Position numbers and translations under genes: made by a program
Notes under the pieces: model-generated
The model's database searches: none
Seen by the model: only the letters and a program-made list of their open reading frames with translations
What the model was told of the DNA's origin: nothing
Shown here: positions 14,689 through 17,453 of the stretch, piece after piece
Layout of the letters: each line of letters opens with the position of its first letter
How positions within the stretch are numbered: the first letter of the stretch is position 1
From: a virus
Lineage: Duplodnaviria; Heunggongvirae; Uroviricota; Caudoviricetes
Virus record (IMG/VR): IMGVR_UViG_3300012979_000028
Span: 1-21,984 of that record
DNA: 21,984 nt
Reading direction: 5' to 3' (one strand)

Positions 14689-14728
14689 GAGAAGAGGATT
14701 AAAAAACTTTCCCCTTCTCTTTTTTTTA
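14689..14728. terminator. Bidirectional terminator
   Basis: GAGAAGAGGA/TCCCCTTCTC imperfect stem plus T-tract between convergent genes. Confidence 0.6.
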
Positions 14729-14986
14729 TTTCTTCCATAACTCTTGTATCCAGCTTCTTAAATTTTTCCACCAACCATCTTCTCCATAACAGTGAATTAC
14801 AGGAATAGGTTGTCCAGTTACAGAATCTTTTTCCACAATCCATTTACTAGACTCTATCTTCCAAAGCGTCTTATAACCAAAATCTCCGACTGTAGTTATA
14901 ACCTTGATTAGAATAATAACCTCAAGAACTATTGATGCAAATATAAGCCAGATAGTTCCTAGTACATACATAAACTTTCTTATCAT
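14726..14986 (-). CDS. Small membrane protein (N-terminal TM)
   Basis: FMYVLGTIWLIFASIVLEVIILI; preceded by motif CTTATAAGTA (15016-15007). Confidence 0.65.
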   Translation of the reverse strand: MIRKFMYVLGTIWLIFASIVLEVIILIKVITTVGDFGYKTLWKIESSKWIVEKDSVTGQPIPVIHCYGEDGWWKNLRSWIQELWKK

Positions 14987-15020
14987 AATATTATATAATT
15001 TTTATCTACTTATAAGGATT

Positions 15021-15209
15021 GAAAAAAAAAATAACTCCAATGGAAATGTTGATCAGTAAGAGTATTATAAATTCATTTTAATATATAGAAGTAACTAAAT
15101 CAACTAAGCCATTGGAGCTAGAGATAGATAGGATATGTCAATCAGTAATTAAATATAATACCTTATTTGAATAGAAGTAACTAAACTGACTAAGCCTCTC
15201 TTCTCTATT
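15021..15209 (-). ncRNA. Putative structured ncRNA of two tandem ~90-nt hairpin units
   Basis: No ORF; lies between promoter motif CTTATAAGTG (15225-15216) and a U-tract. The two units share GGCUUAGUnnnUUUAGUUACUUCUAU and ACUGAUnnACAU and show compensatory stem changes. Confidence 0.65.
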
Positions 15210-15215
15210 ATCTAT

Positions 15216-15290
15216 CACTTATAAGATATTGCCGGGATTTGAAAAGTAGAAAAAAAAATAGAGAGCTAAACAAATCTGCCTAACTCTCTA
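15216..15290 (-). promoter_or_regulatory. Terminator (15250-15290) plus promoter motif CTTATAAGTG (15225-15216)
   Basis: TAGAGAGTTA/TAGCTCTCTA stem plus T-tract, then the motif. Confidence 0.65.
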
Positions 15291-15299
15291 ATCTTTATT

Positions 15300-17453
15300 T
15301 TAATCTCCTAGTACCTGAAGAATCTTTGTATAATCTTGAATAATATCATCTTTCGTTATTTTCAAGACTTTCATTTCCTCTTCTCCTTCTACTAGTTCTG
15401 GCTCAACGTAATCCTGTGAAGATACTACTGTTGCTCCTTGTGATTGATAGTAATGCTCTAGTAGATTAAAGCAATTTACGTAATCACAACACCTAGTAAC
15501 AATCTTCATTATAGTACTACATACTTCTTGGTTCGGAACTATTGCATTATTTCCAACAGTCATATTTACAAGTATAGCCTTTCTCTCAACTAGATCAAAT
15601 AGCCAAGCCTGTAAACTACTACTCTTCGATGTTAGCTTAGTCATGAAGGTTGGATCACTAGGTACCCATTTTACTGAAGCTACCGGAATACCATTAGTTA
15701 AGTACTCATAACCTGACCAACAAGGAAGTGTGTTAAATCCTTTTCCGGTATAGTTATTCAGAGATACAAGCACATACCTATAATTAGCTTTTATTGCCTC
15801 TTCTATGTTGATATCTATGTACTCACTGCAACCTCCACGTCTGTTTCTTACGTCACCGCTATATACTCCGATCTTAGATGACAAGTGACTATTCCAACCT
15901 ACCTTATGAAAATCACTAAAGTTCTCCTCAGCAAAATATCCATGTAGGTCTAAGTCTTCTGTTCCTGAATCATCAAGCCAGTGTACGAAGAATCTTATTG
16001 TATTAACCGACCCTGGAATATCAAATCTTGTTCCTCTCGGCATAGAAGAATCTCCTCTCATATCTACTGGAATAGGTACCTCCTCAAGAAGTTTATCCAG
16101 TACGACAGTGTGATTAAGCATCTCATCACCAGAGAATTTATTTATTATCTTACAGAATAATGCTGTTTTCATTACACTAATCACAGCTTCAACAACATCT
16201 TTAGACATTGCTGGAAGAGCTGGAATTTCTTTGTGTATCCAATTTCCTTCTTTATTCTTAAACTTAACTATTCTACCTCTATCCACCTCTCTTCCTCTAT
16301 AATAGTTAAGAACCTCTAGTAAAGTTTTATTCTTACTACTATTAAAGGCTTTTCCTAGGGTATTAATTAGGAAATTGTTTATGTTCCTTTCCTCCTTAAT
16401 ATACCTACGGAGAATTGAATCTAGTCTTCTCAATAATTCCCCTGGTCTGTGTGATAGAAACTCTGCAATATCATCCAGGTCTGCATTAGTATCATATAAC
16501 TTCTGCAGCTTAGAATTCCAGGTCTCTACATTCTTTCTACCATGATCCTTCGATAAAACTACTTTGCAAAACTCCATAGTAACTGGAAATTTTTTACTAT
16601 AATCCCCACAATGAAGGTTTCGTAGTAATAAGATCCACTGTCCTATATGCCTTGATGTATTCTCTACCCAGATTTCGTGGCTTTTATTAGTTTCCATGCT
16701 TTTCTTCACTAGTAGTTGCTCTAACATGGAAATTATATGCCTTCTATCTTTACGACTGATGGAAGCAACTTTTTCTCGCTTACCAGAAGAGAACTCACTA
16801 GATCCTGTCAACTTATATATTCCTAGTCTAAGTACATCCGTAAGTTCACTAGGTAGATAATCCGGTCTCTTATCCATAACCATAACTAGAGTCTCTTTGA
16901 ATGGTATGGTACTAGGAAGCTTACAATCCTTTATATTCTCTAGAAACCAGGTTAATTCTTCTTTTATTTGATCCGATGGTGCAGTACCTAGAGAACAAAT
17001 TGACTCCGGAATACTGTTAAACTCATCCTCACTCATGACCCCTAGAATAACTGGAGTCTTTACCACTACACCATCTCCCTTCTCTTTTTTGTTGTAGCTG
17101 AATATTGGATCATCATAACTCAACTGCTTATTATAGATCTTTTCCTGAATCTCGGATAGAGTATCTTGATCCATTTCCAATACTTGATCTGGAAATCCTG
17201 GCCAAAGTGGTTTAAAGTCCTCCTTCAAGTCATCGTGAAACTTTTCTTTTAGTAGTGGTAGAGCTTGGTGAAGATACTCTGTCATCTCTTCTGTGGAAAT
17301 ACGCTTCAGTACTTCCTTGTCGAGGTGATAACCAAATCTTTCAAACTCTGCTGTAAAGGTTTGTAACTCTTGAGCTCTTTTTAAATCTAGCTCTAACTCT
17401 TTATTACTAGTTACTAATACCTTACTTCTTCTAAATGCGATAATCTGTTTCAT
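15300..17453 (-). CDS. Large protein with C-terminal TerD-like domain
   Basis: HRPGELLRRLDSILR helical region, then IRFFVHW...DLDLHG...YSGDVR...SEYIDINI...YRYV, a TerD-like pattern. Confidence 0.6.
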   Translation of the reverse strand: MKQIIAFRRSKVLVTSNKELELDLKRAQELQTFTAEFERFGYHLDKEVLKRISTEEMTEYLHQALPLLKEKFHDDLKEDFKPLWPGFPDQVLEMDQDTLSEIQEKIYNKQLSYDDPIFSYNKKEKGDGVVVKTPVILGVMSEDEFNSIPESICSLGTAPSDQIKEELTWFLENIKDCKLPSTIPFKETLVMVMDKRPDYLPSELTDVLRLGIYKLTGSSEFSSGKREKVASISRKDRRHIISMLEQLLVKKSMETNKSHEIWVENTSRHIGQWILLLRNLHCGDYSKKFPVTMEFCKVVLSKDHGRKNVETWNSKLQKLYDTNADLDDIAEFLSHRPGELLRRLDSILRRYIKEERNINNFLINTLGKAFNSSKNKTLLEVLNYYRGREVDRGRIVKFKNKEGNWIHKEIPALPAMSKDVVEAVISVMKTALFCKIINKFSGDEMLNHTVVLDKLLEEVPIPVDMRGDSSMPRGTRFDIPGSVNTIRFFVHWLDDSGTEDLDLHGYFAEENFSDFHKVGWNSHLSSKIGVYSGDVRNRRGGCSEYIDINIEEAIKANYRYVLVSLNNYTGKGFNTLPCWSGYEYLTNGIPVASVKWVPSDPTFMTKLTSKSSSLQAWLFDLVERKAILVNMTVGNNAIVPNQEVCSTIMKIVTRCCDYVNCFNLLEHYYQSQGATVVSSQDYVEPELVEGEEEMKVLKITKDDIIQDYTKILQVLGD

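What the first reader, a model, noticed from the sequence alone, without database searches (positions are those of the whole stretch)
15021..15225. Unannotated RNA: two tandem long hairpins with conserved internal loops and covarying stems
Seen (minus strand). Unit A (15207-15119): UAGAGAAGAGAGG-CUUA-GUCAG-U-UUAGU-UACUUCUAU...ACUGA-UUGAC-AUAU-CCUAUCUAUCUCUA. Unit B (15120-15032): UAGCUCCAAUGG-CUUA-GUUGA-U-UUAGU-UACUUCUAU...ACUGA-UCAAC-AUUU-CCAUUGGAGUUA. The ~12-bp outer stems have unrelated sequences yet both pair. The middle stem changes compensatorily (GUCAG/UUGAC vs GUUGA/UCAAC). The CUUA/AUWU internal loop, the bulged U, UUAGU/ACUGA and the unpaired UACUUCUAU are conserved. G-U pairs only work on the minus strand. 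The unit has its own promoter motif and ends in a U-tract. Inference: a two-site protein-binding decoy, for example an antitoxin or crRNA mimic against host defence, or a sponge for a host RNA-binding protein. I do not recognise it as a known family.
Basis: partly seen in the sequence, partly recalled or inferred. Interest (0 to 1): 0.8.

Follow-up and report, generated by a model that had tools for sequence, protein, structure and literature searches.

The report
New phage hairpin RNAs flanking one protein
The two hairpins are real small RNAs from a previously undescribed family that sits, in one to five tandem copies, beside one uncharacterised protein gene in many large phages, often inside their tRNA gene clusters, which suggests an unknown RNA-protein machine.

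Summary
Two abutting hairpin units of about 88 nt lie on the minus strand at 15207-15121 and 15120-15032. They have their own promoter and end in a 10-U run. Neither matches Rfam or a tRNA model.

In close relatives the stems covary: 14 units are 91.9% paired, against 25-47% in slid controls. The promoter block also drives tRNA-Leu in relatives, which marks the hairpins as a stable-RNA gene.

The main new result concerns the upstream 717-aa gene. It encodes a helical domain resembling the ZorC EH domain, followed by a TerD domain. A covariance model built from the units finds the same RNA next to distant homologues of this gene (22-34% identity):
- At least 59 of 80 viral loci carry it, with 149 matches, all on the gene's strand.
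- In whole-record scans, 48 of 66 matches lie within 1 kb of the gene, against 2 expected by chance.
- Cultured phages XacN1, Weasels2 and LpeD carry units in unannotated gaps flanking the gene.
- tRNA or tmRNA arrays surround the module in 21 of 57 loci.

The GGC / UU(A/C)CUUCUA / UUUCC signature is conserved, and 21 of 22 stem pairs covary.

Best reading (inferred, not shown): the RNAs are partners of the adjacent protein and form a ribonucleoprotein that works like Ro60-Y RNA, without belonging to that family. This scan had not found the element before on other DNA.

The parts
15121..15207 (-). Hairpin RNA unit A: outer stem with two bulges, CUUA/AUAU internal loop, GUCAG/UUGAC helix, bulged U, UUAGU/ACUGA helix, and an apical loop that starts with UACUUCUA
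   Evidence: Sequence. Fold. Model R2 scores 82.7 bits and R3 59.8 bits. Covariation.
15032..15120 (-). Hairpin RNA unit B: perfect 12-bp outer stem including one G-U, CUUA/AUUU internal loop, GUUGA/UCAAC helix, bulged U, UUAGU/ACUGA helix, and an apical loop that starts with UACUUCUA
   Evidence: Sequence. Fold. Model R2 scores 89.4 bits and R3 77.7 bits.
15022..15031 (-). Run of 10 U directly after the basal stem of unit B. Together with that stem it probably acts as an intrinsic terminator and marks the 3' end of the RNA.
   Evidence: Sequence. The same U-run follows the last unit in all close relatives. Termination itself is inferred.
15208..15247 (-). Promoter block of the stable-RNA type: TTTCAAATCCCGGCAAT, then ATCTTATAAGTG, then a short leader
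   Evidence: The block occurs only twice in the 184-kb genome. It is conserved in relatives whose neighbouring protein is only 51% identical, and it lies directly upstream of a tRNA-Leu(UAA) gene in L005, L026 and L027. Promoter activity is inferred.
15250..15290 (-). Intrinsic terminator of the upstream protein gene (14-bp stem plus T-run). It separates that gene's mRNA from the hairpin RNA unit.
   Evidence: Terminator scan. Weak Rfam matches that cover only terminator hairpins.
15300..17453 (-). Gene for the 717-aa protein P0001: an N-terminal helical domain resembling the ZorC EH domain, then a C-terminal TerD-fold domain. It is the proposed protein partner of the RNA.
   Evidence: The AlphaFold model has pLDDT 85.9. 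The TerD fold scores Z 13.1. AFDB Foldseek gives E 6e-19 to a cluster named as a ZorC EH domain protein. NCBIfam RING_SCO0854 scores E 4e-42, below its cut-off. Co-location with the RNA family is shown.
14995..15016 (-). Short promoter-like motif CCTTATAAGTAGATAAAA of the next gene (86 aa, 14726-14986). It shows that the RNA unit is insulated on both sides.
   Evidence: Sequence. The motif class was noted in earlier finding e1-5384844. The same arrangement occurs in relatives.

Best explanation
The locus is a stand-alone gene for two small stable RNAs. It is transcribed on the minus strand from a promoter of the kind that also drives the phage's tRNA-Leu, and it ends at the U-run after unit B.

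Each unit of about 88 nt is a long irregular hairpin. Its helices are free to change sequence. Three elements stay fixed: GGC at the top of the basal stem, the internal-loop and 3' UUUCC side, and UU(A/C)CUUCUA at the 5' edge of the apical loop.

The units belong to a previously undescribed RNA family. In many large phages this family flanks, in the same orientation, the gene for one protein family (a ZorC-EH-like helical domain plus a TerD domain). The module often lies inside tRNA/tmRNA gene arrays.

The most likely mechanism is that the hairpins are the specific RNA ligands of that protein. The conserved loop nucleotides on a defined helical scaffold would be the recognition surface. The resulting ribonucleoprotein would act on RNA, probably in tRNA-centred maintenance or conflict, in the way Y RNAs work with Ro60.

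Shown here: the structure, its conservation, its strand, its genomic association and its context. Inferred: transcription, processing, protein binding and the cellular role.
For: Structure:
- z = -3.0 for the 201-nt stretch.
- 14 close units are 91.9% paired against 25-47% slid, with covariation 0.474.
- 35 units from distant phages are 89.9% paired against 31-46% slid. 21 of 22 pairs change on both sides. Covariation is 0.542 against at most 0.086. An independent count gave the same picture.

Stand-alone RNA gene:
- A terminator lies upstream and a U-run downstream.
- No ORF fits the region.
- The promoter block is shared with tRNA-Leu in relatives and occurs only twice in 184 kb.

Association with the protein:
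- The RNA lies downstream of the orthologue in all close relatives.
- Model R3 gives 149 matches at E<=0.01 in 650 kb around distant homologues. All are on the gene's strand, and at least 59 of 80 loci have a match.
- In unbiased scans of 37 whole viral records, 48 of 66 matches lie within 1 kb of the gene against 2.06 expected, and 65 of 66 are on the same strand.
- Cultured phages XacN1, Weasels2 and LpeD carry 2-3 units in the unannotated gaps that touch the gene.

Protein suited to binding nucleic acid:
- The N-domain matches an AFDB cluster named as a ZorC EH domain protein at E 6e-19. ZorC's EH domain binds dsDNA (PMC11946911).
- E187 and H281 are invariant, and R234, R237, R336, R342, R349 and R394 are invariant or at least 90% conserved.
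- The best hit in the solved-structure search is the Ro60 ring of a phage, with Z 7.6 over 262 residues.

RNA-centred context:
- tRNA and tmRNA arrays on the same strand occur in 21 of 57 loci.
- RtcB and RlaP lie near some homologues.
Against: - No transcript data exist for this phage, so expression and RNA ends are inferred.
- No binding test was possible.
- The nearest outgroup of the protein (28-36% identity; L006-L015 and L031-L037) has no detectable unit within 3-4 kb. In three of these records the only matches lie 5-10 kb away. Adjacency is therefore not universal.
- The Ro60 similarity is below the level at which helical-repeat matches can be trusted (Z 7.6), and Foldseek against the PDB did not find it.
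- The only biochemistry known for the EH domain is sequence-independent dsDNA binding, not RNA binding.
- Part of the co-location could reflect shared residence in tRNA arrays. However, 36 of 57 loci have no tRNA within 3 kb, and many of those loci still carry units.
Confidence: 0.6

Rival explanations
1. The hairpins are cis-acting elements of the protein gene's own expression, not trans-acting RNAs. Candidates are autoregulatory operator hairpins, or processing or stability signals in its 5' and 3' untranslated regions.
For: In many distant phages the units end 20-100 nt before the start codon or begin just after the stop codon, on the same strand. Examples are L076 2909-2982, L047 2920-3005 and L127 1593-1681. 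Many phage RNA-binding proteins autoregulate in this way (established knowledge).
Against: In the window and all close relatives a strong terminator lies between the gene and the hairpins, and a dedicated tRNA-type promoter drives them. Arrays of up to five units, units 2 kb away (L062) and units placed among tRNA genes fit separate small RNAs better.
Confidence: 0.15
2. The hairpins act independently of the neighbouring protein as decoys or sponges for a host factor, for example an anticodon nuclease or another tRNA-directed defence enzyme. They are near the protein only because both sit in tRNA regions.
For: The units are tRNA-sized, lie in tRNA arrays and share a promoter with tRNA-Leu. The invariant CUUCUA has the form of an anticodon loop (pyrimidine, U, UCU, A), read directly from the sequence. 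This is an inference.
Against: The association with the protein gene is much tighter than with tRNAs. 48 of 66 matches lie within 1 kb of the gene. Units are present in loci with no tRNA within 3 kb, such as L076, L062 and L056. No tRNA-like fold is detected. No host is known.
Confidence: 0.13
3. The module is an RNA-antitoxin (type III-like) pair. The tandem RNA units neutralise a harmful activity of the adjacent protein.
For: Tandem RNA units lie next to a protein gene in the same orientation, separated from it by a terminator. This recalls toxI-toxN (established knowledge; architecture seen).
Against: The units are 70-95 nt, differ from one another in their stems and are not near-identical short repeats. 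The protein has no nuclease-like fold or match. Units lie on either side of the gene.
Confidence: 0.06
4. The element works at the DNA level, as a recombination or cassette-boundary repeat or a compound terminator, or it is not functional.
For: The gene plus its units occur in varied genomic contexts like a movable cassette. Unit B with its U-run resembles a terminator.
Against: Pairing is kept through G-U pairs that fail on the other strand. All 149 matches share the gene's strand. Unpaired loop nucleotides are invariant while the stems covary. A terminator needs none of these features.
Confidence: 0.04

Closest known systems
Ro60 (Rsr) with Y RNAs, including YrlA of bacteria and mycobacteriophages
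   Same: Both are small RNAs of 80-130 nt closed by a long 5'/3' stem. Both are encoded in one to four tandem copies right next to the gene of their protein partner, in bacteria and in phages, and are linked to RtcB-type RNA repair and to tRNA biology (PMC4201824; PMC7824862). The best solved-structure match of the protein's N-domain is a phage Ro60 ring.
   Different: There is no TROVE domain by sequence. The C-terminal domain is TerD, not vWA. There is no GGUCCGA or GNCGAA motif and no tRNA-like T/D arms. The region has no Rfam Y RNA or YrlA match. The conserved signature is GGC / UU(A/C)CUUCUA / UUUCC.
Type III toxin-antitoxin RNA arrays (toxI/toxN and relatives)
   Same: A tandem RNA array lies beside a protein gene on the same strand, with a terminator between them.
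   Different: Here the units are long irregular hairpins with divergent stems, not 34-36-nt identical repeats. The protein is 700 aa with no ToxN-like fold. The units can lie on either side of the gene.
ZorC of type I Zorya, and the MXAN_6230/SCO0854 RING-domain family (NF041916)
   Same: The protein's helical domain matches an AFDB cluster named as a ZorC EH domain protein (E 6e-19). The protein matches NF041916 over 438 residues (E 4e-42). The family has an invariant E and H.
   Different: The phage proteins lack the RING domain and score below the family cut-off. PADLOC ZorC models do not match. No ZorA, ZorB or ZorD lies nearby. No RNA partner has been reported for ZorC or the SCO0854 family in the papers searched.
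Small stable RNAs of unknown function in the phage T4 tRNA cluster (species 1 and 2, rnaC and rnaD); recalled from memory, not tested here
   Same: They are non-tRNA stable RNAs encoded within a phage tRNA gene cluster.
   Different: No sequence or structure comparison was made, and no associated protein is known for the T4 RNAs.

Membership tests
Y RNA / YrlA (Ro60-associated RNAs) | Encoded adjacent to a TROVE-domain Ro60 orthologue | tested here: not met
   No Pfam TROVE match in P0001 or in any of 42 family members. No TROVE match in the 184-kb genome. A fold resemblance to a phage Ro60 ring exists (Z 7.6, 262 residues, rmsd 4.3) but is too weak to count.
Y RNA / YrlA (Ro60-associated RNAs) | Conserved Ro60-binding motif GGUCCGA (animals) or GNCGAAN0-1G (bacteria) in the 5' strand of the stem (PMC4201824) | tested here: not met
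   The 5' strand reads GGCUUAGUYRR-U-UUAGU. The helix that resembles GUC.G/UUGAC in unit A covaries freely in other units.
Y RNA / YrlA (Ro60-associated RNAs) | 80-130 nt, with a long stem formed by the 5' and 3' ends plus a large loop | tested here: met
   The units are 78-94 nt, with a basal stem of 9-13 bp and an apical loop of about 25-40 nt.
Y RNA / YrlA (Ro60-associated RNAs) | tRNA-like domain (T and D arms) in at least one RNA per locus | tested here: not met
   ARAGORN finds no tRNA in the window or the genome. The units match no Rfam tRNA, YrlA or Y RNA model, even at E<=10.
Type III antitoxin RNA (ToxI-like) | Array of near-identical short direct repeats (about 34-36 nt) next to an endoribonuclease toxin gene | tested here: not met
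   The units are 70-95 nt, and the two window units share only the loop elements. The protein has no nuclease family or fold match.
CRISPR repeat or RNA anti-CRISPR mimic | Similarity to a CRISPR direct repeat, with a spacer-repeat layout | tested here: not met
   The only Rfam CRISPR-DR match is a 16-bit, E=4 match on the other strand, outside the units. The 86-nt periodicity reflects whole hairpins.
Any Rfam 15 family | Score at or above a family's gathering threshold | tested here: not met
   There are no matches in the window. The hairpins have none at E<=10. In nine distant loci only tRNA and tmRNA match, never the units.
TerD domain (protein partner, C-terminal part) | TerD beta-sandwich fold | tested here: met
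   Residues 480-652 align to TerD structures 2qz7 (Z 13.1) and 2kxt (Z 12.0). Foldseek probability is 1.00 to TerD/TerZ/TerE entries. Pfam TerD itself is only marginal, matching 2 of 42 members.
MXAN_6230/SCO0854 RING-domain family (NF041916) | Full-length match above the curated cut-off, including the N-terminal RING domain | tested here: not met
   The score is 144 bits against a cut-off of 600. The match covers model positions 187-652 only, and the RING part is absent. The protein is related but is not a member.
ZorC (Zorya type I) | EH-signature core domain and a genomic association with ZorA, ZorB and ZorD | tested here: inconclusive
   The fold matches an AFDB cluster named as a ZorC EH domain protein (E 6e-19, TM 0.60). 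E187 and H281 are invariant. However, no PADLOC ZorC model matches, Pfam EH_Signature does not match, and no Zorya genes are seen in the neighbourhood.

The most novel reading that the evidence does not exclude
The hairpin RNAs and the EH+TerD protein form a widespread phage-specific ribonucleoprotein system, present in phages with hosts in at least three bacterial phyla. It is embedded in tRNA/tmRNA arrays and guards or manipulates the tRNA pool during infection. Possible modes are sensing, sequestering or helping to repair tRNAs cut by host anticodon nucleases, with the invariant CUUCUA loop mimicking an anticodon loop. It would be a functional counterpart of Ro60-Y RNA that arose independently.
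Probability: 0.3. Interest if true: 0.9.

Novelty: categorically new. Interest (0 to 1): 0.82.

Why it matters
Phage tRNA clusters are now seen as counter-defence against host tRNA-cleaving immunity, yet non-tRNA genes inside them are mostly ignored. This work defines a new structured RNA family with strong covariation and ties it to a large protein family. That family has at least 3,192 clusters at 50% identity and no known function. It is related to the DNA-binding ZorC component of Zorya defence and to bacterial RING/TerD proteins.

The pairing gives both components a first functional handle and suggests a new RNA-protein machine in large phages. The module is present in cultured phages with tractable hosts: Xanthomonas XacN1, Rhodococcus Weasels2 and Lactobacillus LpeD. 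The idea can therefore be tested directly. It also shows that the unannotated gaps next to this gene in deposited phage genomes hold RNA genes.

Tried and rejected
- **Exact-motif scans.** Scans of IMG/VR and of JGI metagenome contigs found only chance matches inside coding regions. They say nothing about distribution.
- **Peptide-pattern search.** A search of IMG/VR with the single protein found nothing. The alignment-based search succeeded.
- **RNA expression.** No RNA holder was listed for this stretch among public runs. DNA contigs laid on the region only confirmed natural variants.
- **Seed pairing.** The complement of UACUUCUA is not enriched in the phage genome: 18 sites against about 14 expected. 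This gives no support for a base-pairing sRNA that acts on phage mRNAs. Host targets could not be tested.
- **Closest outgroup.** Models R1 and R2 found nothing within 4 kb of the 32-36% identical homologues, even with filters off.
- **Records not held.** Searching the records behind the ENA/Logan loci was not possible.
- **Link to TROVE or ZorC by sequence.**
  - A profile search of PDB sequences found only marginal TerD.
  - Pfam scans of all 42 members found nothing.
  - PADLOC found nothing.
  - Foldseek of the N-domain against the PDB found nothing.
  - The big profile search returned only the family itself in its top 150.
- **Absences in the genome.** RtcB and TROVE were not found in the 184-kb genome, which is an incomplete record.
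- **Not attempted.** Complex prediction was not used, because it cannot take RNA.

Full report
**The element.**
The window is the first 22 kb of a 184-kb IMG/VR virus record that CheckV rates about 49% complete. The same protein occurs on contigs of 325-351 kb, so this is a jumbo phage. The sequencing runs that hold the stretch are from bovine gut.

On the minus strand, two hairpin units abut: unit A at 15207-15121 and unit B at 15120-15032. A run of ten U follows at 15031-15022.

The 201-nt stretch folds to -42.7 kcal/mol with z = -3.0. The plus strand gives z = -2.06. The region has no tRNA and no Rfam match at the gathering threshold. At E<=10 the hairpins themselves also have no match. The region holds no usable reading frame on the minus strand.

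**Transcription unit.**
The upstream gene (15300-17453, minus strand, 717 aa) ends in its own intrinsic terminator at 15290-15259. A conserved block follows: TTTCAAATCCCGGCAAT, then ATCTTATAAGTG. The hairpins start 3-9 nt after it.

This block occurs only twice in the 184-kb genome. It is nearly identical in relatives whose neighbouring protein is only 51% identical. In relatives L005, L026 and L027 it lies directly upstream of an intron-less tRNA-Leu(UAA) gene.

It therefore looks like a promoter class used for stable RNAs. That is the best available evidence that the hairpins are made as RNA, since no RNA-seq run holding this phage could be listed. The shorter CTTATAAGT-type motif is the general promoter-like motif noted in earlier finding e1-5384844. 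It recurs before the next gene, at 15016-14995.

**Conservation in close relatives.**
Homologues of the 717-aa protein were found in metagenome assemblies and their contigs were fetched. Every contig that reaches past the gene carries two tandem units at the same place.

Fourteen distinct units were aligned (A6). With the structure I specified:
- 91.9% of cells pair, against 25-47% when partners are slid by 1-3 columns.
- Ten pairs change on both sides.
- The covariation score is 0.474, against at most 0.157 in slid controls, and 0 of 500 shuffles reach it.

The middle helix appears as GUCAG/UUGAC, GUUGA/UCAAC, GUUAG/UUAAC, GUUAG/UUGAC and GUCUG/CAGAC. Natural variants in other samples show the same paired changes, for example 15188 with 15139.

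There are 39 G-U cells on the minus strand and 12 on the plus strand, which gives 91.9% against 83.1% paired. This favours an RNA read from the minus strand. The rest of the apical loop is A/U-rich and changes in sequence and length even between near-identical phages.

**The neighbouring protein.**
P0001 has no significant Pfam or PADLOC match. It matches a PHROG of unknown function. It also matches NCBIfam NF041916 (MXAN_6230/SCO0854 RING-domain family) at E 4e-42, far below the cut-off and without the RING part.

A confident AlphaFold model (pLDDT 85.9) shows a C-terminal TerD fold (Z 13.1). When folded alone, the N-terminal helical domain gives three results:
- Its best solved-structure match is the Ro60 ring of Thermus phage phiLo (Z 7.6, 262 residues, rmsd 4.3). 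This is suggestive but below a safe level for helical repeats.
- Foldseek against the PDB finds nothing.
- It strongly matches an AlphaFold DB cluster named as a ZorC EH domain protein (E 6e-19, TM 0.60, 23% identity). ESM Atlas clusters of prokaryotic RING family 4 and SCO0854 proteins also match.

The family has an invariant Glu and His (E187, H281), and R234, R237, R336, R342, R349 and R394 are invariant or at least 90% conserved. ZorC's EH domain binds double-stranded DNA without sequence preference (PMC11946911). The family is very large: 3,192 clusters at 50% identity with E<=0.001.

**The decisive result: the RNA family follows the protein family.**
An alignment-based search of IMG/VR returned 80 loci that encode homologues at 22-34% identity. 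Many are on contigs of 100-500 kb.

Model R2, built from the 14 close units, was used to scan 37 of those records end to end. It gave matches that clustered next to the homologue. On the 80 loci, 49 of its 50 matches were on the gene's strand.

The matched sequences share GGC, UU(A/C)CUUCUA at the 5' edge of the apical loop, and AUUUCC, on stems of unrelated sequence. Thirty distinct distant units were 91% paired against 33-47% in slid controls.

Model R3 was rebuilt from 35 units, nearly all from distant phages. It gave three results:
- **Loci.** 149 matches at E<=0.01 in 650 kb searched on both strands. All are on the gene's strand and lie upstream of the gene (nearly all within about 1 kb) or downstream of it (mostly within 0.5 kb, the furthest about 2 kb in L062). 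At least 59 of 80 loci have a match, with arrays of one to five units.
- **Whole records.** 66 matches at E<=0.001 in 27 of 37 records. 48 lie within 1 kb of the gene against 2.06 expected, and 65 of 66 are on the same strand.
- **Own genome.** Only the two window units match.

On alignment A10, 89.9% of cells pair against 31-46% in slid controls. 21 of 22 pairs change on both sides, and the covariation score is 0.542 against at most 0.086. That alignment is fitted to the model, which inflates the pairing figure somewhat. The slid controls were run on the same alignment.

**Context.**
In nine distant loci, Rfam finds only tRNA and tmRNA, and never matches the units. ARAGORN finds tRNA or tmRNA genes, nearly all on the gene's strand, within 3 kb in 21 of 57 loci. 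The units sit between the tRNAs and the protein gene without overlapping them.

Some homologues lie near RtcB, RlaP and an AAA protein, and the window's own genome has an RlaP gene. In the window's lineage a tRNA-Leu gene lies about 3.5 kb upstream. In this genome it is reduced to an intron-bearing remnant (earlier finding e1-5384839).

**Cultured phages.**
tblastn finds the protein in Xanthomonas phages XacN1 and Xoo-sp13, Rhodococcus phage Weasels2, Lactobacillus phage LpeD, Rhodobacter phage RcXuper, Salicola phage SCTP-2 and others. R3 places units in the unannotated gaps that touch the gene:

| Phage | Units | Position relative to the gene |
|---|---|---|
| XacN1 | 3 | gap upstream of ORF396 |
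| Weasels2 | 3 | gap downstream of gp266, within a tRNA array |
| LpeD | 2 | just upstream of orf166 |

The module therefore spans phages of Proteobacteria, Actinobacteria and Firmicutes hosts, as well as this rumen phage.

**Interpretation.**
Three patterns fit a protein-recognised RNA: invariant unpaired nucleotides on freely covarying helices, strict co-orientation with one protein family, and tight adjacency to it across very distant phages. The neighbouring protein is the obvious candidate partner.

The closest working analogy is Ro60 with Y RNAs. These are small stem-closed RNAs, often in tandem next to the protein gene, in bacteria and phages, tied to tRNA-like RNAs and RtcB repair (PMC4201824; PMC7824862). 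Membership fails, however: no TROVE domain, no Ro-binding motif and no tRNA-like arms.

Weaknesses of this reading:
- Expression and binding are not shown.
- The nearest outgroup of the protein lacks detectable units nearby.
- The only biochemistry on a related domain concerns DNA.

The rival readings are a cis-regulatory role for the gene's own mRNA, an independent host-directed decoy, an antitoxin-like RNA and a DNA-level element. They are weighed in the Rival explanations section. Full-text searches found no paper that describes this RNA or an RNA partner for this protein family.

Noticed in passing
Own genome G000:C1:140530-140800 (minus strand), outside the window; held as locus L030: The only other copy of the stable-RNA promoter block (TTTCAAATCCCGGCAAA TTCTTATAAGTG) precedes an ORF-less stretch of about 230 nt. 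The stretch is relatively G+C-rich and ends in a U-run. It has no Rfam match and an unremarkable fold z-score (-0.66). It may be a second, unrelated small RNA gene.
   Followed up: partly
L005:678-830 and L026/L027:117-270: Relatives carry an intact, intron-less tRNA-Leu(UAA) gene behind the same promoter block. In this window the corresponding tRNA is a remnant joined to a group I intron, according to earlier finding e1-5384839.
   Followed up: partly
L049:6771-7172 and L095:5538-5897: Phage-encoded tmRNA genes lie 1-2 kb downstream of the protein-plus-hairpin module, in the same orientation and within tRNA arrays.
   Followed up: no
L006 (contig of the 36%-identical homologue P0005) and L014: Homologues that lack detectable hairpin units nearby sit close to RNA-repair genes (RtcB, RlaP) and an AAA ATPase. 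In records G002-G004 the only matches to the RNA model lie 5-10 kb upstream of the gene.
   Followed up: partly
L126 (Xanthomonas phage XacN1 AP018399.1, 286828-291186): In XacN1 the module lies about 1.4 kb downstream of a gene annotated as a nucleotidyltransferase (ORF399). This might be an RlaP-like RNA-repair enzyme. It was not checked.
   Followed up: no
window 14904-15059 (+): A 51-codon TTG-start frame on the plus strand overlaps unit B. It is most likely spurious, because the region is conserved as RNA structure rather than as coding sequence.
   Followed up: partly
window 15032-15120 and the B units of relatives: The near-perfect B hairpins also score about 26-29 bits on the opposite strand with the RNA model, simply because they are palindromic. 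Such antisense matches must be removed from any seed alignment.
   Followed up: yes
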